In this document: positions 3 to 10,114 of the stretch, piece after piece | Layout of the letters: the number at the start of each line of letters is the position of its first letter | Numbering within the stretch: position 1 is the stretch's first letter | Assembly: GCA_027622635.1 (NCBI GenBank) | Contig: JAQBYK010000001.1 | Location: 1-29,692 of the forward strand | Direction of reading: 5' to 3' | DNA from: a bacterium | GTDB taxonomy: Bacteria > Patescibacteriota > Gracilibacteria > UBA1369 > LOWO2-01-FULL-3 | DNA: 29,692 bases | Translations under genes and position numbers: made by a program | The notes under the pieces: generated by a model | What the model was told of the DNA's origin: nothing | The model's input: the letters and a program-made list of their open reading frames with translations, nothing else | Database searches by the model: none

Positions 3-713
3 CTTTGGGGAAATATCAGAAATTTAGTCAAATTTGGTGCTTCTGAGGATGAAATTTGGGCTGCCATTGAAGCTATACAAAACAGTCTTGATGATATCGA
101 TTATGAAAATGTTTTTGGAGAGAATTCTGTAGAATTCTACGACGTAGAGTTTGGAGAAAATCCGGCCTGGTATTGGGATGATGTTATGACTACGCGGAAG
201 AAGGGCATAATAAACGGGTATAGCGATGATGATGGATTGACTGGTTACTTTGGACCTGGAGACAATGTAACCTATGCAGAGGCGCTTAAGATGACCTTGG
301 AAGCTGCAGGATATGGAGAGGCATCTCACAATGAAAACATATTTTGGTATGAGGGATATCTTGTTAGATTGGACGAGCTTTCTCTACCCGGGCTTAATCG
401 TGGAAGTTATGAGTGGAATGCCACTGCACCTCGGGGAGACATTCTTATGATGGTAAATGGCATTTTCGGATTGGAAGCCGTTGATTATGTGGATGGCACA
501 TTCCCGGATGTATCCGCTAGTGACTCAATTGCAGATGACGCAATGGCATCTTACTTGGCCGGAATATTTACCGGTGCCGGCGAAACGGGAAATCTTAATC
601 CAAATGACTTTATAGATAGGGCATCTTTTGCTAAAGTGATTAACGTTGGATATGATTATTTATCAGATGAAAACTTTACAGATACACTAAAGACATTTAA
701 TCAAAAATTGTAA
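3..713 (+). CDS. S-layer homology (SLH) domain surface protein, 5'-partial (frame open to window edge)
   Basis: Frame is open from nt 3 (LWGNIRNLVKF...), so the 186 start in the ORF track is internal. SLH-like repeats: FYDVEFG..AWY..VMTTRKKGIINGY..GYFGPGDNVTYAEALKM and FPDVSASDSIADDAMASYLAGIFTG..GNLNPNDFIDRASFAKVI. Confidence 0.8.
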   Translation, partial: LWGNIRNLVKFGASEDEIWAAIEAIQNSLDDIDYENVFGENSVEFYDVEFGENPAWYWDDVMTTRKKGIINGYSDDDGLTGYFGPGDNVTYAEALKMTLEAAGYGEASHNENIFWYEGYLVRLDELSLPGLNRGSYEWNATAPRGDILMMVNGIFGLEAVDYVDGTFPDVSASDSIADDAMASYLAGIFTGAGETGNLNPNDFIDRASFAKVINVGYDYLSDENFTDTLKTFNQKL

Positions 714-1094: not shown

Positions 1095-1122
1095 TTTACA
1101 AAAAAAAGATCTCTGCTAATAT
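1095..1122 (+). promoter_or_regulatory. Sigma70-type promoter of the ilv leader/operon
   Basis: TTTACA (1095-1100), 16 nt spacer, TGc-TAATAT (-10 at 1117-1122, extended TG at 1114-1115). The predicted start site (about 1129-1130) coincides with the leader ATG. Confidence 0.6.
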
Positions 1123-1129
1123 CAACACA

Positions 1130-1177
1130 ATGAAACGTCTCATACTAATTATTTCAGTGCTAATTATTATCCTCTAG
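1130..1177 (+). CDS. ilvL: ilv operon leader (attenuator) peptide MKRLILIISVLIIIL
   Basis: ATG AAA CGT CTC ATA CTA ATT ATT TCA GTG CTA ATT ATT ATC CTC TAG: 15 aa, 11 of them Ile (6), Leu (4) or Val (1), no Thr. Lies directly upstream of a terminator and the ilv genes. Too short for the ORF track. Confidence 0.88.
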   Translation: MKRLILIISVLIIIL

Positions 1178-1203
1178 TCCAGAGAGACGTTTGCATTAAA
1201 AGT

Positions 1204-1237
1204 AAAAACCTCTCTGCACTGCAAAGAGGATTTTTTT
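1204..1237 (+). terminator. Intrinsic terminator of the attenuator
   Basis: AAAAA-CCTCT-C-TGC-act-GCA-A-AGAGG-A-TTTTTTT. Confidence 0.85.
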
Positions 1238-1291: not shown

Positions 1292-3130
1292 ATGGTCACA
1301 CTAAACGAAAATTTCTACACCCTTCAATGCATAAACTGCAAAGCGGAATTTGATGAGCACACAACCTGCACAAAGTGCCTCAAATGTGGCTGTTCTCTTG
1401 ACGTAATCTACAACTATGATTTTATTAAGCAGCGATTAAATCTCTACGCGCTCAAGCATTCGCCCATATCGGCACTAAAATACCTGACATTCTATCCGAT
1501 CATAGATTTATCGAAAATCATCACTTTAAACGAAGGTGGAACACCACTTCACCACTGCAAAAATCTTTCAAAAAAATATAAACTAAACAATCTTTTCATA
1601 AAAAATGAAGGAGCAAACCCAACCGGAGTATTCAAAGATAGAGGCACACTTGTAGAAATAACGAAAGCCCAGGAAATGGGGGCAAAAGCGGTTTGTTTTG
1701 CATCAACAGGAAACATGGCTGCATCTGTAGCCGCCTATTGTACTCAGGCAAAACTTCCTTGCTACGTTTTGGTACCGGAAGGAACCCCAATCGGAAAATT
1801 GGCGCAAACACTTTCATATGGCGCAAGAATAATCCAGGTACGTGGCACATACTCTCAGTGTTCTAAATTGGCCGAACAAATGGCCAAGAAGCACGGCTTC
1901 TTTTTGGCGGGAGATTATGCGTTCAGACTTGAAGGTCAAAAATCTCAGGCATACGAAATAGCCGAACAGCTGGGTTGGAAAGCTCCTGATTATCTCGTGT
2001 GCCCGGTTGGAGTAGGCACAAACATATCGGCAATTTGGAAAGGATTCAGTGAGCTTCATAAATTAGACTTAATCGACAAGCTCCCAAAAATAATAGCGGT
2101 ACAACCTGATGGATGTGATGTTGTTGTTCGAGCCTTTAATTCCAAAAGCAAAAAATTAGTGGAAATCGAAAAACCAAACACCGTGTGTAGCGCAGTCGCG
2201 GTTTCAATGCCATTCGATGGAATGAAAGTACTAAAAGCTCTAAAAGATTCCGGTGGTTGTGGAGTTAGCATACCTGACGAAGAAGTTCTGGCAATTGAGC
2301 AAACTTTAGCCAGAGAAGAGGCTATATTTGTTGAACCGTCGGGTGCTCTTCCTCTTGCCGCAGTGGCAAAGTTAAGTGAGAAAGGATTCTTTAAAAAAGA
2401 TGACACCATTGTTTGTGTGGCAACAGGTAATGGGCTCAAAGACCCAAAATCCGCGGTAAAAATTATTCCGGACCCTCCCACAATTGATCCCGAATTATCA
2501 GAAGTAGACAATTACCTTAAATACAAACTTTATCAAATCCAATCCGAGGGGGTTAAAAATCGAAGTAAAATTCTTTGGAAAAAAATTCCTTCGGAAAAAG
2601 ATTTAAAAAAGATTGTCCATGATGAATTCGGAATCAATTTAAGTAAGGCGGTATTGAAAGGCACTACTGATAGCATCAAAAAATTTGAGACAAAAGGCAA
2701 GAAGATAAATAAACAAGATATTCAAAATATTATTGAAGAACAGCTGGACGAATATAATCAGAAGGAAAAACATCTCAAGATAATAGATTTCGAAGTTAAA
2801 ACTTCTAAATACAAAGAGGCGGAGGCAAGTATTAAACTAAGCTATGGAAATAAAATACTTATTGAGCAGGCCAAGGGTGTAGGTGCGGTAGATGCGATAA
2901 TAAGTGCTCTAAAAAAAGCCATCAAAGGTCACGATAAACTGGAAATAAAACTAATAGACTACAATGTTGAAATATTCACGGGCGGTGTTGAAGCAGCAGT
3001 GAAAGTTGTTATGACCGCTATTGATAAAAATGGAAATCGTATCATCGCACAGGCTACATCACCTGACGTAATCGTAGCCTCGGTAAGTGCTTTTGAGAAA
3101 TGCTACAACTTCCTATACCACAGAAAATAA
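1292..3130 (+). CDS. thrC: Threonine-synthase-like PLP enzyme fused to a C-terminal LeuA/CimA-type allosteric (dimerisation) domain
   Basis: N-terminal CxxC..CxxC zinc ribbon; KNEGANPTGVFKDRG (PLP Lys115), ASTGN, RLEGQKS, FVEPSGA, TGNGLKDP (fold-type II ThrC, to about aa 385). Aa 494-612 match the LeuA_dimer pattern GVGAVDAIISAL..IKLIDYNV..GGVEAAVKV..ATSPDVIVASVSAF..N. Confidence 0.85.
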   Translation: MVTLNENFYTLQCINCKAEFDEHTTCTKCLKCGCSLDVIYNYDFIKQRLNLYALKHSPISALKYLTFYPIIDLSKIITLNEGGTPLHHCKNLSKKYKLNNLFIKNEGANPTGVFKDRGTLVEITKAQEMGAKAVCFASTGNMAASVAAYCTQAKLPCYVLVPEGTPIGKLAQTLSYGARIIQVRGTYSQCSKLAEQMAKKHGFFLAGDYAFRLEGQKSQAYEIAEQLGWKAPDYLVCPVGVGTNISAIWKGFSELHKLDLIDKLPKIIAVQPDGCDVVVRAFNSKSKKLVEIEKPNTVCSAVAVSMPFDGMKVLKALKDSGGCGVSIPDEEVLAIEQTLAREEAIFVEPSGALPLAAVAKLSEKGFFKKDDTIVCVATGNGLKDPKSAVKIIPDPPTIDPELSEVDNYLKYKLYQIQSEGVKNRSKILWKKIPSEKDLKKIVHDEFGINLSKAVLKGTTDSIKKFETKGKKINKQDIQNIIEEQLDEYNQKEKHLKIIDFEVKTSKYKEAEASIKLSYGNKILIEQAKGVGAVDAIISALKKAIKGHDKLEIKLIDYNVEIFTGGVEAAVKVVMTAIDKNGNRIIAQATSPDVIVASVSAFEKCYNFLYHRK

Positions 3131-3142
3131 ACCAAACTATAA

Positions 3143-4066
3143 ATGTCTAAAACTTTTCCCTACACATACATAAAAGGAAGAACAACTAGGACAAAAGACG
3201 CAAAAGTGCCTATCCAATGCAAGGCCATTCAATATGGACTTGGTTGCTTTACCGGCATTCGCGGATTCTGGCATAAGAAAAAAAAGAATCTTTATCTATT
3301 CAGACTTGAAGATCACTACAAAAGACTTAAGAATTCTTCCAAACTTTTGGGAATGAAATTCGACTACACATATCCGGAGTTCAGAGAGATCATTTTTAAA
3401 TTGGTAAAACGCAATAAGGTCAAAGAAGACCTATATATAAGACCAACTCTATATGCGGCATCAACACTTCTCACACCTCGTTTTGATAACCCGGATGACG
3501 ATCTTGCCATTTACATGATATCTCTAAAAAATTATTTCAAAGCAGATCGAGGATTAAATGTTTGTATTAGCAGCTGGACCAGATTTAGTGACGACATCAT
3601 TCCGACAAAAGCAAAAAGTACCGGTGCATATGCCAATGGTGCGCTCGCAAAAACAGAAGCTTTGAGAAAAGGTTTCGATGAGCCAATATTCTTAGACGCA
3701 AAAGGCAATGTATGCGAAGCCAGTGGCGCCAACATTTTTGGCATAAAGAATGGAGTGATCTGGACTCCACCAACGACAGCCAGCATTTTAAACGGAATTA
3801 CTCGTGACAGCTTAATCAAACTCGCAAGGAAAGAACTCAAACTAAAAGTTGAAGAGAAAAATTTCAAGAAGGAAAAGCTATTTCAATTTGATGAATTATT
3901 CTTGTCGGGCACAGCAGCGAAAATCACTCCGGTAGCAAGTGTGGATAAAAAGAAAATTGGAAATGCATCGCTGGGTCCAATTACCGCGCAACTAAAAACA
4001 CTATATGACAAAGCTGTAATGACTGACCTAAAAGGTTACGAGAAATGGTGTACATCTATATATTAA
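3143..4066 (+). CDS. ilvE: Branched-chain amino acid aminotransferase
   Basis: [30 protein letters not shown] (PLP Lys), [23 protein letters not shown]: fold-type IV aminotransferase, in ilv context. Confidence 0.92.
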
Positions 4067-4073
4067 ATTAATC

Positions 4074-5759
4074 ATGACTAATCAAAATCTCAAAAAAAGG
4101 AGTTCACTTATGACGGATGGAGACGCTCGTGCTCCAAGTCGCGCTATGCTTCGTGGCACAGGATTTAAGGACGAAGATTTTAAAAAACCACTAATAGGGG
4201 TTGCCAGTTGTTGGAGTGAAATCACAACTTGTAATATGCACCTGGACAAATTAGCAAAGAGTGCAAGGGATGGAGTTTGGGATAACGAAGGGGCAGCGCA
4301 AATATTCGGGACAATCACAGTTTCCGATGGTATTTCCATGGGACATGAAGGTATGAAGTATTCACTTGTAAGCCGCGAAGTAATTGCTGACTCAATTGAG
4401 ACGGTTGCCGGCGCGCAGCGCTTTGATGGCCTGATTTGTGTAGGTGGTTGTGACAAGAATATGCCCGGATCCCTTATGGCAATCGCCAGAGTAAACGCAC
4501 CTGCAATATTCATATACGGAGGAACAATAATGCCGGGTAAATTTGAAGGAAAAGACATCGACATAGTTAGTATTTTCGAAGCCGTTGGCAAATTCCAGTC
4601 CAAAAAAATAGACGAAAAAGAATTTCACGAAATTGAATGCAATGCCTGCCCGGGGCCGGGATCATGTGGTGGCATGTACACCGCAAATACAATGTCATCA
4701 GCAATCGAAGCACTTGGGATGGCTTTGCCATATGGATCTACAACACCTGGAATTTCAACTGAAAAATTAGAAGAATGCGAAAAAGCGGGGAAACAAGTTC
4801 TGGAACTAATCAAAAACAACATCACTCCGGACAAAATTATGACAAAAAAAGCATTTGAAAATGCAATTACGGTAGCCCTGGTACTGGGTGGATCAACAAA
4901 TGCGGTTCTACATTTGTTAGCCATGGCTCATTGTATTGGGGTAGAGCTAAACTTAGAAGACTTCAATCGCTTGTCGGATAAAACCCCACAACTGGCAAAT
5001 CTAAAACCGGGAGGAAAATATGTGACAGTCGATCTACATCGTATAGGAGGACTTCCCGCTGTCATGAAAACGCTACTTGATGCAGGAATGATCCACGGAG
5101 AATGTATGACTGTTACTGGAAAAACTGTTGCGGAAAATTTAGAAAACGTTTCACATTTTTCAAAAGATCAGGACGTTGTTATGCAACTGGAAAATCCAAT
5201 AACCAAAACCGGCCCATTTGCAATATTGCACGGGAATCTGGCGCCTGAAGGTGCGGTTGTAAAAATTAAGGGACTAAAAGCAACCAAGCACAGTGGCCCT
5301 GCAAAAATTTATGATTGTGAAGAAGATGCATTCCACGCGATTGAGCAAGACAAAGTAAAAGCCGGTGACACAGTGGTAATAAGACATGAAGGACCCAAGG
5401 GCGGCCCGGGAATGCGCGAAATGCTGTCAGTCACCTCGGCACTAATCGGCAAAGGGATTGGCCACGAAGTTGCGCTTATTACAGATGGTCGCTTCTCAGG
5501 TGGAAGTCATGGATTCATCATAGGACACACAGCCCCGGAGGCATATGTTGGTGGACCTATCGCACTAATCAAGGACGGCGACATCATCAACATAGATTTG
5601 GAAAATAAATCAATGGACGTAGAACTCAGTGAAGAAGAGCTCGCAAAGCGCCTTGAAAACTGGACAAAACCGGCCCCTAAGTATAAATTTGGGGTCTTAC
5701 GCAAGTATATTGAAACAGTCGGCTCACCAAAATACGGTGCTATCACAGATAAATTTTAA
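4074..5759 (+). CDS. ilvD: Dihydroxy-acid dehydratase
   Basis: [73 protein letters not shown]. Confidence 0.97.
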
Positions 5760-5773
5760 TTAACCTAAAAACC

Positions 5774-6820
5774 ATGACAAAATTAAATTTCGGAGGCAAA
5801 GACGAAGAAGTTGTTACACGCGAAGAACTTCCTCTATCAAAGGCACAAGAAATATTGAAAGACGAAACTATCGCAGTCTTAGGCTACGGAGTGCAAGGGC
5901 CGGGTCAAGCAATGAACCTAAAAGACAACGGCATCAATGTAATAATCGGCCAAAGAAAAGGCGGTGATTCATGGGAAAAGGCCCTTAAAGACGGATGGGT
6001 GGAAGGCGAAACACTTTTTGAGCTTGAAGAAGCGGCAGAAAAGGGAACCGTATTAATGTATTTACTTTCAGATGCGGGACAGAAAATGTGTTGGCATAAG
6101 GTGCGACAGCACCTTAAAAAGGGAAATGCGCTATATTTCTCACATGGTTTTTCGATAGTTTACAAAGACCAAACCGGAGTTATACCACCGGAAGACGTGG
6201 ATGTGATTCTTGTCGCACCAAAAGGACCGGGAGGGAAACTAAGAGAACTCTTCCTAAAAGGAGAAGGTGTTAATTCAAGTTTTGCCATTCACCGGGACGC
6301 TACCGGTAATGCAAGAGATCGCGCTCTCGCACTTGGTATCGCGGTCGGATCAGGGTTCTTATTTGAAACTACATTTGAAAAAGAAGTTGTAAGCGATTTA
6401 ACAGGCGAAAGAGGTGTCCTTATGGGGGCAATAGCTGGAATAATGGAGGCTCAGTACAACATTCTTAGAAAAAACGGACACAGCCCATCAGAAGCTTTTA
6501 ACGAGACTGTTGAAGAAGCCACTCAAAGTTTAATTCCTTTAATAGGAGAAAACGGAATGGATTGGATGTACGCAAATTGCTCCACGACAGCTCAGAGAGG
6601 TGCATTGGATTGGAGACACAAATTCCGCGAGGCCACAGAACCGGTATTTGAAAAACTATATGACAGCGTCAAAACGGGAAAAGAAACAGAGATTGTACTT
6701 AAAGCGAATAGCGATCCAAATTATAAAGAAAAACTGAAAGAAGAACTCGACGAAATGGCAAAGTCGGAAATGTGGCAGGCAGGACGTACAGTTAGATCCT
6801 TGCGGCCAAAAGCCAGTTAA
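5774..6820 (+). CDS. ilvC: Ketol-acid reductoisomerase (Bacteroidetes/fungal Ilv5-like type)
   Basis: GYGVQGPGQ Rossmann motif, YFSHGF, VAPKGPG, SDLTGERGVLMG, EAFNETVEE, NCSTTAQRGALDW; N-terminal LNFGGKDEEVVTREE extension. Confidence 0.95.
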   Translation: MTKLNFGGKDEEVVTREELPLSKAQEILKDETIAVLGYGVQGPGQAMNLKDNGINVIIGQRKGGDSWEKALKDGWVEGETLFELEEAAEKGTVLMYLLSDAGQKMCWHKVRQHLKKGNALYFSHGFSIVYKDQTGVIPPEDVDVILVAPKGPGGKLRELFLKGEGVNSSFAIHRDATGNARDRALALGIAVGSGFLFETTFEKEVVSDLTGERGVLMGAIAGIMEAQYNILRKNGHSPSEAFNETVEEATQSLIPLIGENGMDWMYANCSTTAQRGALDWRHKFREATEPVFEKLYDSVKTGKETEIVLKANSDPNYKEKLKEELDEMAKSEMWQAGRTVRSLRPKAS

Positions 6821-6828
6821 GAAATCAG

Positions 6829-8667
6829 ATGCTAAAAACTAAATCACAAAAAGTGAAAAAAGAAGCAATCAAACCCCATAACAGGGCAAACATAACGCAC
6901 AACATACCAAAAACTCTAACGGGAGCAGACTTGTTTTGCCAAGCCCTTGCGGACCAAGGTGTTGAGATAATGTTTGGAATACCGGGAGGAGTTGTTTTAC
7001 CACTTTATGATAGAATAAATAAGTATGGTCATCATATCAGGCATATATTACCAAGCCACGAACAAGGTGGAGGATTTGCAGCGGACGGCTACGCCAGAGT
7101 TACGGGCGAAGTGGGAGTAGCCCTTGGAACATCCGGGCCGGGTGCCACAAATCTCATGACCGCAATTGCAAATTCGATGATGGATTCTGTGCCAACTGTG
7201 TATATAACCGGACAGGTTGTTGAAAATTTCATTGGCACAGACGCATTCCAGGAAACGGACGTAATCGGGATGTCTATGCCGATTGTTAAGCATAGCTATC
7301 TGGTGACCCAAGCAAGGGACATTTCACGAGTAGTAAAAGAAGCATTTTATATCGCGAAAACGGGACGCCCGGGCCCGGTTCACATTGATCTGGTGAAAGA
7401 CATCTGGTTTCAGGAGGCAAAGTACAAGTCGGATCCAAAGATGGACTTGCCGGGCTATAGTCCCATTGCTGAACATTGCAGCGATCGTGATATTGCAAAG
7501 CTGGATATTCTTTTAGAAAAAAAAGGTGTGAAGCCAATTATTTTTGCAGGGCATGGAGTCGAATTATCGGGAGCCCAGGCAGAGTTGGTAGAATTTGCGG
7601 AGAAGCATAACATACCTGTAGCTTCCACTCTACTGAACTTGGGAAATTTCCCGCAAGGGCATGAACTTTGGGCTGGAATGATAGGAATGCACGGCGATGC
7701 GGTCACAAACTACGCCACACATGACGCAAATCTTATCATCGGCATTGGGTGTCGTTTTGATGACCGTATTACAGGTAAACTTGAGACATTCATAAAGGAC
7801 ACAACATTCGTGCACATGGAAATCGATCCATCCGAAATTGGGAAAATTGTGCCCACAGAATTACCTTTGCCAGGAGATGTAAAAGACTTGTTAACTCGTG
7901 CAAATAAAGTGCTTTCCAATCACACTTTTCCGGACTGGTGGGATCAAATAAACAAATGGAAAAAGAAATATGGTTTTCTCGATTTCAAATTAAATCCTGA
8001 AAACGATAAGAAATTCTTAAGTCAGCCCAGAATAATACAGATGCTATCAGAAATTACTAACGGCGAGGCAATTGTCGCAGCTGATGTAGGTCGTCACCAA
8101 ATGTGGACAGGTCGATTCTATCGTTTCAAAAATCCAAATTCCAATCTCACATCGGGAGGGCTGGGGTCTATGGGGTACGGTTTGCCGGCTGCTATGGGAG
8201 CAAAACTCGGAAAACCGGATCGCGAAGTATGGAATATCTCGGGTGATGGTGGATTTATGATGAATGTACAAGAACTCGCGACTATAGCCGAACACAAAAT
8301 TCCTGTCAAAATTGCAATTATGGAGGACAAAGCACTCGGGATGGTAAGGCAATGGCAAAATCTGCTTTTCAAAGGAAACCTTTCTCATTCCGTATTAACA
8401 AACCCGGATTTCGTAAAATTATCCGAATCCTTTGGCATCCCTGCCTGGCGTGCACACAGCTACAAAGAAGCGGAAAAAGCAATTAAAGAAGCACGAAAAG
8501 TAGATGGGCCGGCTTTGATAACATTCATGGTCGACCCGGACGAACACGTCTACCCAATGGTCCCACCCAATACCGCACTTGGCGATCAAGCCCTTAAAGA
8601 CTCAGATCTATTACAAGATAAAGCCCATAAATATGACGAAGAAGACTTACTACAAGGTCACACTTAG
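6829..8667 (+). CDS. ilvB: Acetolactate synthase (AHAS) large subunit
   Basis: FGIPGG, HEQG (catalytic Glu), TSGPGATN, ITGQV, FQETD, GRPGPVHID, GMIGMHG, RFDDR, SGGLGSMGYGLPAA, GDGGF ThDP motif, LGMVRQWQ. Confidence 0.95.
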   Translation: MLKTKSQKVKKEAIKPHNRANITHNIPKTLTGADLFCQALADQGVEIMFGIPGGVVLPLYDRINKYGHHIRHILPSHEQGGGFAADGYARVTGEVGVALGTSGPGATNLMTAIANSMMDSVPTVYITGQVVENFIGTDAFQETDVIGMSMPIVKHSYLVTQARDISRVVKEAFYIAKTGRPGPVHIDLVKDIWFQEAKYKSDPKMDLPGYSPIAEHCSDRDIAKLDILLEKKGVKPIIFAGHGVELSGAQAELVEFAEKHNIPVASTLLNLGNFPQGHELWAGMIGMHGDAVTNYATHDANLIIGIGCRFDDRITGKLETFIKDTTFVHMEIDPSEIGKIVPTELPLPGDVKDLLTRANKVLSNHTFPDWWDQINKWKKKYGFLDFKLNPENDKKFLSQPRIIQMLSEITNGEAIVAADVGRHQMWTGRFYRFKNPNSNLTSGGLGSMGYGLPAAMGAKLGKPDREVWNISGDGGFMMNVQELATIAEHKIPVKIAIMEDKALGMVRQWQNLLFKGNLSHSVLTNPDFVKLSESFGIPAWRAHSYKEAEKAIKEARKVDGPALITFMVDPDEHVYPMVPPNTALGDQALKDSDLLQDKAHKYDEEDLLQGHT

Positions 8668-8885: not shown

Positions 8886-10058
8886 TTAGTACATTCCCAA
8901 AAGCGTTAGTTTCTCAGTAAGTTTTGCTTTAAGCTCCACCCTTCTGGCATCTCCAACAAAGGCGGTAGCAACGCCATTTTTGGCAATCTGTGCCATGTCC
9001 TCAGGTCTAAGATACAACCTTGCTCCACATTGTTTAAGCATATCCATAACACTCGAAACCCCAAAAAATAATGGGTCGTCAGTACAAATTGTAGCTTTAA
9101 TGCCACGTTCAAGAAACTGACGCAAGGGACTATGTCTCAAAGGTGTAAATCGCATTAGGTCGTTGCTCACCGGGCAGGTTTCAACTCCAATCCCTCTCTC
9201 TTTTGCCAAAGTCATTAATATAGGATCTATAGACATAGATGTCCCATGTCCGATACGCCTGGCTCCCAATTGTAGTATTGCATCTTCCACAAAACTTGGC
9301 GGCGCACCCTCGTATTGTGGGTATTCCCCTTGTTCACCGGCATGAACGGTCAATGGAACACCGGCATCTCTGGCAGGAGACAAAACATCCAAAAATCTCT
9401 TTGGTGGATACTGTGCATTTTCAATTCCGGCAATATCTATTCCTACCGGATTGTCTGGATCATAGAGTTCCAAAACTGCATCAACGACATGCCTAGCTTG
9501 ATCTTTTAGAGGATCATAATTTTTGGGATTGTAGTCGGCATCCTCAGGAGTTATCAATCCTTTCTCCCGGCTAAAACAAGAAATAAAAGTCCCGGAAACC
9601 CCAAAGTCATCATATGCCCGATTAATACCTGCCTGCATAGCTGCAATAACATTTTTTATGGGAGCTCCGACCGGACCGGATAGAGACATAGGAGAGGCTC
9701 TGAGCTCAGCATGAATACTCCCTGCTTCATGCTCTCCTTTCATTTGTTCATAAGCAGCGTATTCCAGATCATCTTCACTTCCAAAAACCGAGGACAACAT
9801 CCTATAAGCATTAAGGAAATTCACAATTCCATCACTCTCTGAAAATCCATTTACTACACTATCGACATAGGCCCGTATAGAGTCAGGATCTTGTGGATCT
9901 ACTCCATCAACGACTTCCCCTTCTCTTGTTAAGAATTTTTCAATCCCATTTCTTTGAGCTAAAGTGGCAATTACTTCAGGAGTCATCCCAGCTTCGAAGT
10001 GACGATGCAATTCGACTGTCGGAATTTTGTCTATTTGTGGTGCAGCTAATCCAGCCAT
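8886..10058 (-). CDS. add: Adenosine deaminase family amidohydrolase
   Basis: ELHRHFE (HxH), HAGE, RIGHG, ETCPVSN, TDD metal/catalytic motifs all intact. ATG at 10058; alternative TTG start at 10079. Confidence 0.85.
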   Translation of the reverse strand: MAGLAAPQIDKIPTVELHRHFEAGMTPEVIATLAQRNGIEKFLTREGEVVDGVDPQDPDSIRAYVDSVVNGFSESDGIVNFLNAYRMLSSVFGSEDDLEYAAYEQMKGEHEAGSIHAELRASPMSLSGPVGAPIKNVIAAMQAGINRAYDDFGVSGTFISCFSREKGLITPEDADYNPKNYDPLKDQARHVVDAVLELYDPDNPVGIDIAGIENAQYPPKRFLDVLSPARDAGVPLTVHAGEQGEYPQYEGAPPSFVEDAILQLGARRIGHGTSMSIDPILMTLAKERGIGVETCPVSNDLMRFTPLRHSPLRQFLERGIKATICTDDPLFFGVSSVMDMLKQCGARLYLRPEDMAQIAKNGVATAFVGDARRVELKAKLTEKLTLLGMY

Positions 10059-10114
10059 ATACTTTCTTAAAGTGGACAATTAAAACAGAATGGCCGGAAA
10101 AAATCAAACCTAAA

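What the first reader, a model, noticed from the sequence alone, without database searches (positions are those of the whole stretch)
1292..3130. Threonine-synthase fold fused to the LeuA/CimA allosteric amino-acid-binding domain
Seen: after the ThrC core (ends about aa 385) come a helical linker (about aa 430-490, resembling the subdomain between the TIM barrel and regulatory domain of isopropylmalate synthase) and a complete LeuA_dimer-type domain (aa 494-612). Established: this domain binds Leu in 2-isopropylmalate synthase and Ile in citramalate synthase and gives feedback inhibition. It is normally attached to the HMGL TIM barrel, not to a fold-type II PLP enzyme. Inference: domain shuffling gave a BCAA feedback switch to an enzyme at the entry of the Ile pathway.
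Basis: partly seen in the sequence, partly recalled or inferred. Interest (0 to 1): 0.85.

Follow-up and report, generated by a model that had tools for sequence, protein, structure and literature searches.

The report
ThrC-like enzyme with isoleucine sensor
The first gene of this isoleucine/valine operon is a real, widespread fusion of a threonine-synthase-type enzyme with the isoleucine-sensing domain of citramalate synthase. It most likely makes the isoleucine precursor 2-oxobutanoate in place of the missing threonine deaminase, so its database name "threonine synthase" is probably wrong.

Summary
Window 1292-3130(+) encodes a 612-aa protein. It has a Cys4 ribbon, a ThrC-type PLP core (PALP E 1e-78), LeuA-type linker helices and a complete LeuA_dimer domain (E 2e-24). 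By fold, the C-terminal domain is closest to the Ile-bound CimA regulatory domain 3F6H (TM 0.85).

It is not a chimera. The full-length fusion occurs in at least 80 species genomes of Patescibacteria, Methylomirabilota (NC10) and others, all named "threonine synthase".

The interpretation needs changing:
- Four of the five phosphate ligands of ThrC are replaced, invariantly in 76 fusions.
- Eight relatives also carry an ordinary ThrC behind thrA.
- Ten fusion-bearing relatives have no homoserine dehydrogenase.
- 19 of 21 have ilvC.
- None of 61 relatives reaches the IlvA cut-off.
- RidA lies next to the fusion, or in its operon, in at least 19 loci.

The sensor pocket matches CimA's isoleucine pocket, not that of LeuA from the same genomes. 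A conserved leader peptide ending in an Ile run, with a terminator/antiterminator switch, precedes the gene.

Best reading (about 0.6): an Ile-inhibited, ThrC-derived threonine dehydratase that stands in for IlvA. No assay exists, and four NC10-side genomes carry both the fusion and IlvA.

This scan found the same fusion earlier on other DNA. I tested those readings here independently.

The parts
1095..1122 (+). promoter-like site (TTTACA-16 nt-TAATAT with TG) just before the leader ORF
   Evidence: Consensus scan only. This is weak evidence.
1130..1177 (+). leader peptide ORF MKRLILIISVLIIIL-stop (7 Ile, 4 Leu, 1 Val of 15 residues)
   Evidence: Read from the sequence. Homologous leaders, each ending in a run of 3-4 Ile followed by Leu or Phe and the stop codon, lie 65-140 nt upstream of the fusion gene in relatives from 9 further genera.
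1180..1216 (+). antiterminator hairpin (CAGAGAG 1180-1186 pairs with CTCTCTG 1210-1216), starting 3 nt after the leader stop codon
   Evidence: Folding. The same arrangement, with changed sequences, is present in all 10 aligned relatives.
1209..1237 (+). terminator hairpin (1209-1229) plus T7 run (1231-1237); mutually exclusive with the antiterminator
   Evidence: The scanner detects the hairpin. No Rfam family matches.
1292..3130 (+). gene for the 612-aa ThrC-like / LeuA_dimer fusion protein
1316..1411 (+). N-terminal Cys4 zinc ribbon (residues 9-40; C13, C16, C29, C32)
   Evidence: All four Cys are invariant in 76 fusions. The ribbon is typical of PRK08197-type ThrC.
1469..2506 (+). fold-type II PLP catalytic core (residues 60-405). 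The Schiff-base Lys is K115. The remodelled pocket comprises M142, G207-D208-Y209, V241 and T243, with R212 kept.
2519..2704 (+). helical linker homologous to the LeuA/CimA linker subdomain (residues 410-471)
   Evidence: IPMS models align from residue 410-416. BLASTP to the genome's own LeuA covers 415-612. Foldseek aligns 171-176 columns to MtLeuA.
2705..3115 (+). LeuA_dimer regulatory domain (residues 472-608) with a CimA-like Ile pocket (V533, D534, L554, Y557, I561, V570, P591)
3143..4066 (+). ilvE (branched-chain aminotransferase)
4074..5759 (+). ilvD (dihydroxy-acid dehydratase)
5774..6820 (+). ilvC (ketol-acid reductoisomerase)
6829..8667 (+). ilvB (acetolactate synthase large subunit; no ilvN follows)

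Best explanation
The protein is a ThrC-derived PLP enzyme that no longer makes threonine. It converts L-threonine to 2-oxobutanoate plus ammonia (threonine dehydratase chemistry, the reverse of ThrC's last half-reaction). This supplies the Ile-specific substrate to IlvB-IlvC-IlvD-IlvE, which are encoded directly downstream. Its C-terminal module was taken, linker included, from a citramalate-synthase-like enzyme. That module dimerises and binds L-isoleucine at the dimer interface, giving feedback inhibition. Expression of the whole operon is also controlled by an Ile-codon leader-peptide attenuator. Shown here: the architecture, the remodelled phosphate pocket, the paralogy with a canonical ThrC, the association with ilv genes and RidA, the CimA-like pocket, and the attenuator elements. 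Inferred: the substrate, the product, Ile binding and inhibition.
For: (1) ThrC's phosphate ligands (Tth numbering T88, N154, S155, R160, N188; positions mapped) become M142, G207, D208, R212 and V/C241. M142, G207-D208-Y209 and R212 are 76/76 in fusions, whereas 8 canonical class I ThrC representatives have T, NS.N, R and N. A 98% SH-aLRT branch separates this clade from canonical ThrC.
(2) Eight of 21 fusion-bearing relatives also have a canonical ThrC (TIGR00260 about 290-305 bits) directly after thrA. The same-genus genome is one of them.
(3) Ten of 21 have no homoserine dehydrogenase, including genomes 96-97% complete.
(4) 19 of 21 have ilvC. The order fusion-ilvE-(ilvD-ilvC)-ilvB is conserved.
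(5) No relative reaches the IlvA cut-off. In 20 of 21 the best IlvA-model hit is the fusion itself.
(6) RidA, the enamine/imine deaminase that partners Ser/Thr dehydratases, is adjacent or in the same operon in at least 19 loci. It also follows a short clade member that lacks the sensor.
(7) The pocket residues L554, Y557, I561, V570 and P591 equal LiCMS L451, Y454, I458, V468 and P493, and are conserved in at least 72 of 76 fusions (Y or F at 557). LeuA orthologues of the same genomes have L, F/Y, A/S, G/A and T.
(8) The C-domain homodimer model scores ipSAE 0.50, against 0.00 for the best of 3 controls. That mark was reached by 21 of 30 proteins solved as pairs and by 0 of 23 solved as single chains. 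The runs agree in at least 89% of contacts and pLDDT is 84. The interface contains the pocket residues. Because similar complexes are solved, this shows likeness, not binding.
(9) An Ile-run leader peptide plus a terminator/antiterminator switch is conserved in 10 genera.
(10) Published precedent: ThrC enzymes of Microcystis, T. thermophilus and B. subtilis deaminate Thr to 2-oxobutanoate in vitro (PMC12172450). The isolated CimA LeuA-type domain binds Ile specifically (PMC13381585).
Against: There is no biochemical evidence for any member. The lists of ThrC phosphate ligands and LiCMS pocket residues come from my memory of Omi 2003, Murakawa 2011 and Zhang 2009. I could only check that the numbering lands on the right residue types; the papers were not retrievable. 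R212, the Arg that binds phosphate in ThrC, is retained. Four of 41 genomes on the NC10 side carry both the fusion and a bona fide IlvA (over 475 bits), and 15 carry a catalytic-only dehydratase, so 'replacement' is not universal. In NC10 the gene has no ilv neighbours. LeuA promiscuity (a citramalate route) cannot be excluded as the source of 2-oxobutanoate. NCBIfam still scores the protein above the threonine synthase cut-off. A Thermococcus relative with STGNM, but N in place of D208, may be a working ThrC.
Confidence: 0.6

Rival explanations
1. The enzyme forms 2-oxobutanoate directly from O-phospho-L-homoserine, or another activated or free homoserine, by beta,gamma-elimination and deamination. 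This is a known side reaction of ThrC. It would bypass threonine and is still Ile-regulated.
For: ThrC chemistry passes through the same aminocrotonate intermediate, and R212 is retained. The window's genome and 10 other fusion-bearing relatives do have AK-HSDH. The ilv, RidA and attenuator evidence fits this reading equally well.
Against: Four of five phosphate ligands are replaced, and an invariant Asp (D208) sits where phosphate binds. Ten of 21 fusion-bearing relatives have no homoserine dehydrogenase, so they have no route to homoserine phosphate.
Confidence: 0.15
2. It is a genuine threonine synthase whose activity is throttled by a branched-chain amino acid. Threonine would then be passed to an unrecognised deaminase, or 2-oxobutanoate would come from LeuA acting as a citramalate synthase.
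For: Scores exceed the curated ThrC cut-offs. Identity to solved ThrC is about 36-40% in structural alignment, with phmmer E-values of 1e-64 to 1e-74. It is the only ThrC-type gene in 11 fusion-bearing relatives and in the incomplete genome of this window.
Against: The phosphate pocket is rebuilt. The gene coexists with a canonical ThrC in 8 relatives and with two in a complete NC10 chromosome. It is present in genomes without homoserine dehydrogenase. It is linked to RidA. In the window's genome the canonical thrC is probably just lost at the contig break directly after thrA.
Confidence: 0.12
3. It catalyses some other fold-type II reaction, such as Ser dehydration to pyruvate, racemisation, or a beta-replacement making a non-protein amino acid. 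The LeuA_dimer domain would then sense a ligand other than Ile.
For: The ThrC-like superfamily has diversified repeatedly (cysteate synthase and many 'other' clades). The new Asp208 could bind a cationic or hydroxyl group. In NC10 the context is uninformative.
Against: The gene holds the first position of ilv operons in many genera. The leader is Ile-specific. The pocket is identical to the Ile pocket of CimA at 5 of 6 positions.
Confidence: 0.1

Closest known systems
Class I (Zn-ribbon / short) threonine synthase ThrC, EC 4.2.3.1 (PDB 2ZSJ, 6CGQ/6NMX, 2D1F, 1UIM/1V7C; TIGR00260, PRK08197)
   Same: The fold is the same. The FKDRG Schiff-base lysine, the STGN carboxylate loop, the TGNGLKDP motif and the Cys4 ribbon are shared. 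Identity is about 36-40% in structural alignment.
   Different: The phosphate pocket is changed: T88 to M, NS.N to G-D-Y with a one-residue deletion, and N188 to C/V. These changes are invariant in the clade. There is an extra C-terminal module of about 200 aa. The gene sits in ilv or RidA context instead of thr context, and it coexists with a canonical ThrC.
Biosynthetic threonine deaminase IlvA, EC 4.3.1.19
   Same: It has the same proposed reaction and pathway position (first Ile-specific step, first gene of an ilv operon). It has the same logic of Ile feedback through a C-terminal sensor plus Ile-dependent attenuation of the operon. It belongs to the same PLP fold-type II superfamily and shares the partnership with RidA.
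   Different: The catalytic domain is of ThrC lineage (IlvA models score about 100 bits against cut-offs of 379-411). The sensor is a LeuA_dimer domain, not the ACT-like Thr_dehydrat_C domain (none found).
Citramalate synthase CimA of Leptospira interrogans, regulatory domain with Ile (PDB 3F6G/3F6H); LeuA regulatory domain (1SR9/3FIG)
   Same: It is the best structural and only sequence match of the C-terminal domain. The Ile-pocket residues L451, Y454, I458, V468 and P493 are identical, and the predicted dimer places them in the interface. The linker helices are also homologous to LeuA.
   Different: There is no HMGL/DRE-TIM catalytic barrel. Y430 of LiCMS is V533 here. The module is attached to an unrelated catalytic fold, so the allosteric coupling must be new.
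'Moonlighting' ThrC of Microcystis aeruginosa and the side activities of T. thermophilus and B. subtilis ThrC (PMC12172450)
   Same: These are ThrC-fold enzymes shown in vitro to deaminate Thr to 2-oxobutanoate. They establish that the chemistry is accessible to this fold.
   Different: Those enzymes still make threonine from O-phosphohomoserine and have no LeuA_dimer domain. I did not test whether the cyanobacterial lineage shares the M/G-D-Y signature.

Membership tests
Threonine synthase (EC 4.2.3.1; TIGR00260 / PRK08197) | Fold-type II PLP core with the Schiff-base Lys in an FKDRG motif, and a score above the curated HMM cut-off | tested here: met
   PALP E 1e-78. PRK08197 scores 311.5 against 303 and TIGR00260 scores 242 against 167. 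K115 is invariant. Foldseek TM is 0.83-0.87 to solved ThrC.
Threonine synthase (EC 4.2.3.1; TIGR00260 / PRK08197) | Pocket for the substrate or product phosphate (Tth T88, N154, S155, R160, N188; list from memory of Omi 2003 and Murakawa 2011) | tested here: not met
   M142, G207, D208 and V/C241 replace four of the five ligands. Only R212 is kept. The pattern is 76/76 in fusions, and 8/8 canonical representatives keep the ThrC residues.
Threonine synthase (EC 4.2.3.1; TIGR00260 / PRK08197) | Acts as the genome's threonine-pathway enzyme (co-occurs with homoserine dehydrogenase and kinase; thr context) | tested here: not met
   Ten of 21 fusion-bearing genomes lack homoserine dehydrogenase. 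Eight have a separate canonical ThrC behind thrA. The fusion's neighbours are ilv genes and RidA.
Threonine synthase (EC 4.2.3.1; TIGR00260 / PRK08197) | Converts O-phospho-L-homoserine to L-threonine plus phosphate | not testable with these tools
   Needs an enzyme assay.
Biosynthetic threonine deaminase IlvA (TIGR01124 / TIGR01127) | IlvA-type catalytic domain scoring above the family cut-off | tested here: not met
   TIGR01127 scores 100.5 bits against 378.75, and TIGR01124 scores 70 against 411.
Biosynthetic threonine deaminase IlvA (TIGR01124 / TIGR01127) | C-terminal ACT-like Thr_dehydrat_C regulatory domain (PF00585) | tested here: not met
   There is no PF00585 hit in the protein or in any of the 61 relatives. 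That search is of limited sensitivity.
Biosynthetic threonine deaminase IlvA (TIGR01124 / TIGR01127) | Functional role: Ile-regulated supply of 2-oxobutanoate at the head of the ilv pathway | tested here: inconclusive
   Context, RidA linkage, absence of IlvA, the Ile-type pocket and the Ile leader all fit. The activity itself is untested.
LeuA/CimA family (DRE-TIM metallolyase with LeuA_dimer) | HMGL-like TIM-barrel catalytic domain (PF00682) | tested here: not met
   There is no PF00682 hit in the protein. The genome's only HMGL gene is leuA on contig C1.
LeuA/CimA family (DRE-TIM metallolyase with LeuA_dimer) | Linker subdomain plus LeuA_dimer regulatory domain that dimerises | tested here: met
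   PF08502 E 2e-24. IPMS models align from residue 410. Foldseek to 3F6H gives TM 0.85. The homodimer model scores 0.50 against a control of 0.00; this shows likeness, not proof.
Leader-peptide transcription attenuator (ilv/trp type) | Short ORF rich in the regulatory codons, with a stop codon next to segment 2, mutually exclusive antiterminator and terminator hairpins, and a U-run | tested here: met
   Window 1130-1237. The arrangement is conserved with sequence changes in 10 genera. Function is not tested.

The most novel reading that the evidence does not exclude
A third, so far unrecognised enzyme solution for the committed step of isoleucine synthesis. It is a threonine-synthase descendant that lost its phosphate pocket and became an Ile-feedback-controlled 2-oxobutanoate-forming lyase by capturing the CimA-type sensor. 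It is used by many Patescibacteria, Methylomirabilota and others, and is systematically misannotated as threonine synthase.
Probability: 0.6. Interest if true: 0.8.

Novelty: new variant of a known kind. Interest (0 to 1): 0.72.

Why it matters
If this is right, metabolic reconstructions of candidate-phyla bacteria and NC10 methanotrophs are wrong in two ways. They credit these organisms with a threonine synthase they may not have, and they miss a complete isoleucine pathway. It would be a clean natural example of an allosteric module moved between unrelated catalytic folds while keeping its ligand. It would also show how loss of a product-binding pocket can redirect PLP reaction specificity. 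The compact, Ile-specific sensor and the leader-peptide attenuator in a reduced-genome lineage are of interest for biosensor design and for understanding regulation in Patescibacteria.

Tried and rejected
- Assembly chimera: rejected, because there are more than 100 full-length homologues and 80 independent species loci.
- Upstream 126-aa ORF (713-1093) as RidA: rejected. It is a small membrane protein with no Pfam hit. The genome's RidA genes lie on contigs C24 and C140.
- GHMP-kinase hit on C22 as homoserine kinase: rejected. It sits beside ispDF, so it is probably ispE.
- PF00585 as the sole IlvA detector: set aside as too insensitive, since it rings in only 5-6 of 14 control genomes. I supplemented it with TIGR01127.
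- NC10 gene neighbourhood: uninformative, with only unrelated housekeeping genes.
- Rfam search of the leader region: no match.
- Literature: no paper on a ThrC/LeuA_dimer fusion was found. Searches for the ThrC phosphate-site residues found nothing useful. Murakawa 2011 and Zhang 2009 could not be retrieved, so the residue lists rest on memory plus numbering checks.
- Context of an archaeal short clade member (P0142): uninformative.
- Strict 'fusion replaces IlvA everywhere': rejected, because 4 of 41 NC10-side genomes have both.
Full report
OBSERVATION. Window 1292-3130(+) is one open frame of 612 codons. Pfam finds PALP at residues 77-379 (E 1.1e-78). It also finds a complete LeuA_dimer domain at 472-608, covering 2-130 of 131 profile positions (E 1.9e-24, 86.5 bits, cut-off 24.9). 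NCBIfam places the N-terminal 385-400 residues in threonine synthase: PRK08197 scores 311.5 bits (cut-off 303) and TIGR00260 scores 242 bits (cut-off 167). Several isopropylmalate-synthase models align to residues 410-610. BLASTP to the genome's own LeuA covers 415-612.

A full-length AlphaFold model (pLDDT 85.5) matches solved ThrC structures with TM 0.83-0.87. A model of residues 405-612 (pLDDT 84.9) has as its best PDB matches the Ile-bound regulatory domain of Leptospira citramalate synthase. These are 3F6H and 3F6G (E 5e-9, TM 0.80-0.85, rmsd 2.0-2.7 A, 31% identity). Next comes M. tuberculosis LeuA over 171-176 columns.

NOT A CHIMERA, AND WIDESPREAD. More than 100 clusters of full-length homologues (55-82% identity) carry both Pfam domains, and wherever they are named they are called 'threonine synthase'. 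Among GTDB species genomes, the 80 best loci are nearly all full-length fusions. They come from Peribacteria, Peregrinibacteria, Gracilibacteria and other Patescibacteria, and from Methylomirabilota (NC10), including Ca. Methylomirabilis MAGs. There is also one MAG each labelled Chlamydiae, Baltobacteraceae, Sulfotelmatobacter and Wirthbacteria. The window itself comes from a Peribacteria genome of 1.16 Mb that is 84% complete.

CONTEXT. ilvE, ilvD, ilvC and ilvB follow on the same strand with gaps of 8-15 nt. The order fusion-ilvE-(ilvD-ilvC)-ilvB recurs in most Patescibacteria loci. In the own genome the only other PALP gene is trpB, and the only HMGL/LeuA_dimer gene is a bona fide leuA next to leuB.

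IS IT THE ORGANISM'S THREONINE SYNTHASE? I searched 61 genomes of the same order.
- 21 carry the fusion.
- Eight of these, including the same-genus genome, also have a canonical ThrC of about 430-455 aa. It scores higher on TIGR00260 (290-305 bits against 232-252 for the fusion). It lies directly after a thrA gene encoding aspartokinase, ACT and homoserine dehydrogenase.
- In the window's genome the thrA contig ends inside the gene, so the missing canonical thrC is most simply an assembly gap.
- Ten fusion-bearing genomes have no homoserine dehydrogenase and no canonical ThrC. These include genomes 96-97% complete. They cannot make O-phosphohomoserine.
- By contrast, 19 of 21 fusion genomes have ilvC, and 19 of 24 ilvC genomes have the fusion.
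- No genome has an IlvA regulatory domain.
- With the IlvA model TIGR01127, no genome reaches the cut-off. In 20 of 21 fusion genomes the best hit is the fusion itself, at about 91-110 bits.
- One ilvC-positive genome without the fusion (G053) has two LeuA-like paralogues, a likely LeuA plus CimA pair.
These genomes are related to one another, so the counts are descriptive only.

ACTIVE SITE. I used the HMMER alignment to T. thermophilus ThrC. Its numbering reproduces K61, S84-T88, N154-S155, R160 and N188. The residues I recall as ligands of the substrate or product phosphate (Omi 2003; Murakawa 2011; not retrievable) map as follows:
- K61 to K115, kept.
- T88 to M142.
- N154-S155 to G207-D208, with a one-residue deletion.
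- R160 to R212, kept.
- N188 to V241.
In 76 fusions from species genomes, M142, G207-D208-Y209, R212 and T243 are invariant, and position 241 is C, V, A or S. Eight canonical class I representatives have T, NS.N, R and N.

A tree of the cores puts all 'STGNM / G-D-Y' sequences on one side of a 98% SH-aLRT branch, away from canonical ThrC and other ThrC-like groups. Short members without the sensor are interleaved with the fusions. Murakawa et al. showed, as I recall, that the retained phosphate directs ThrC towards threonine, and that without it the enzyme releases 2-oxobutanoate. Loss of the pocket therefore predicts exactly the proposed change. In vitro Thr deaminase activity of ThrC enzymes is documented (PMC12172450).

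RidA. An earlier agent of this scan reported RidA in the context, and I tested this. RidA is the enamine/imine deaminase that works with Ser/Thr dehydratases. RidA homologues lie directly beside the fusion, or at the end of its ilv operon, in at least 19 loci. Most of the loci that lack ilv neighbours are among these. A short clade member without the sensor (P0133) is also followed by RidA at a 5-nt gap. In the window itself RidA is not adjacent. The genome has two Rid genes elsewhere, one of them 42-66% identical to the adjacent ones.

THE SENSOR. The only PDB sequence hit of residues 405-612 is the LiCMS regulatory domain. The numbering was checked against 463K/464T in PMC13381585. With it, the Ile-pocket residues I recall from Zhang 2009 (Y430, D431, L451, Y454, I458, V468, P493') correspond to V533, D534, L554, Y557, I561, V570 and P591. 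Five of the six side-chain pocket positions are identical.

Across 76 fusions the counts are L554 76, Y/F557 76, I561 72 (V in 4), V570 75 and P591 74. LeuA orthologues from the same genomes have L, F/Y, A/S/T, G/A and T. The sensor is therefore CimA-like (Ile), not LeuA-like (Leu).

A homodimer model of residues 488-612 scores ipSAE 0.50, against 0.00 for the best of 3 controls. That mark was reached by 21 of 30 proteins solved as pairs and by 0 of 23 solved as single chains. The runs agree in at least 89% of contacts, and pLDDT is 84. The interface (497-507, 530-534, 554, 556-561, 570, 590-598) contains the pocket residues. Because CimA and LeuA dimers are solved, this shows likeness, not proof of binding. 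PMC13381585 shows that the isolated CimA domain binds Ile but not Val or Leu.

ATTENUATOR (found here). The 198-nt spacer before the gene contains several elements:
- A promoter-like site at 1095-1122.
- A 15-codon ORF at 1130-1177 encoding MKRLILIISVLIIIL.
- A hairpin (1180-1186 with 1210-1216) that begins 3 nt after the stop codon.
- An overlapping terminator hairpin (1209-1229) followed by T7.
Equivalent leaders, each ending in a run of 3-4 Ile followed by Leu or Phe and the stop codon, with the same pair of exclusive hairpins built from different sequences, precede the fusion gene in 9 further genera. Rfam has no match. This is the classical ilv-type logic. A ribosome stalled at the Ile codons lets the antiterminator form. 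A ribosome that reaches the stop codon masks it, and the terminator forms. Together with the sensor this gives two layers of Ile control, as for E. coli ilvA.

LIMITS.
- Nothing has been assayed.
- In NC10 the gene stands among unrelated genes.
- A complete NC10 chromosome has the fusion, two canonical ThrC genes, one LeuA and no full IlvA.
- Among 41 genomes around that chromosome, about 35 have the fusion. Of these, 22 have no other dehydratase-like gene, 15 have a catalytic-only dehydratase, and four have a bona fide IlvA as well. The fusion is therefore not always a replacement.
- R212 is retained.
- A Thermococcus relative with STGNM, but Asn at position 208, may be a working ThrC.
- LeuA promiscuity is not excluded.

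VERDICT. The most likely reading (0.6) is an Ile-inhibited, ThrC-derived threonine dehydratase supplying 2-oxobutanoate. Less likely readings are direct formation from homoserine phosphate (0.15), a feedback-regulated true ThrC (0.12), and something else (0.1). I found no paper on this architecture. The scan had flagged the same fusion on other genomes. My tests agree with those follow-ups, and they add the paralogue and homoserine-dehydrogenase phyletic evidence, the Ile-pocket calibration against LeuA of the same genomes, and the attenuator.

Noticed in passing
window 1130-1237: A leader-peptide transcription attenuator (MKRLILIISVLIIIL, with antiterminator and terminator) lies in a Patescibacteria genome and is conserved in 10 genera upstream of the fusion gene. 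There is no Rfam family for it.
   Followed up: yes
G000 contig C94 = L013:2-2821(-); relatives L015:1826-4969, L016:3320-5801, L018, L020: thrA (aspartokinase-ACT-homoserine dehydrogenase) carries a C-terminal P-loop kinase-like domain of about 130-230 aa (GMSNIGKT). In one genus this domain is a separate 224-aa ORF. It always sits between thrA and the canonical thrC. It has no Pfam or NCBIfam family, apart from a weak AAA_33 hit for the tail. No GHMP homoserine kinase was found, so this is a candidate non-orthologous homoserine kinase.
   Followed up: partly
G000 contig C137 = L002:1324-2163 and 2274-2543: trpB is split into two ORFs (279 aa and 89 aa), with about 38 profile positions missing between them. 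This could be a frameshift, a pseudogene or an assembly error. The trpD/C and trpA neighbours are intact.
   Followed up: no
window 6829-8667 and downstream: The acetolactate synthase large subunit has no ilvN small-subunit gene after it. The next gene, an adenosine deaminase at 8886-10079, is on the other strand. I did not search for ilvN elsewhere in the genome.
   Followed up: no
window 3-713 and 713-1093; L025, L042, L046: An SLH-domain protein and a 126-aa membrane protein are conserved upstream of the operon in several relatives. Their function is unknown.
   Followed up: partly
G053 (L122, L123): This relative has ilvC but no fusion. It carries two LeuA-type paralogues, one 55% and one 28% identical to the window genome's LeuA. 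The divergent one has Y, V, V at the pocket positions, so it is a likely CimA. That would be complementary to the fusion.
   Followed up: partly
G024:C6:17899-18765: One fusion-bearing relative also has a Ser/Thr-dehydratase catalytic domain (288 bits on TIGR01127) inside an 879-aa open frame. This is an unusual, large architecture that I did not examine.
   Followed up: no
L094 and L096 (uncultured bacterium; Ca. Methylomirabilis sp.): A second ThrC-like ORF (411 aa and 354 aa) lies next to the fusion gene. In L096 it sits beside a thrA-like fragment. These may be tandem paralogues that show how the clade arose.
   Followed up: no
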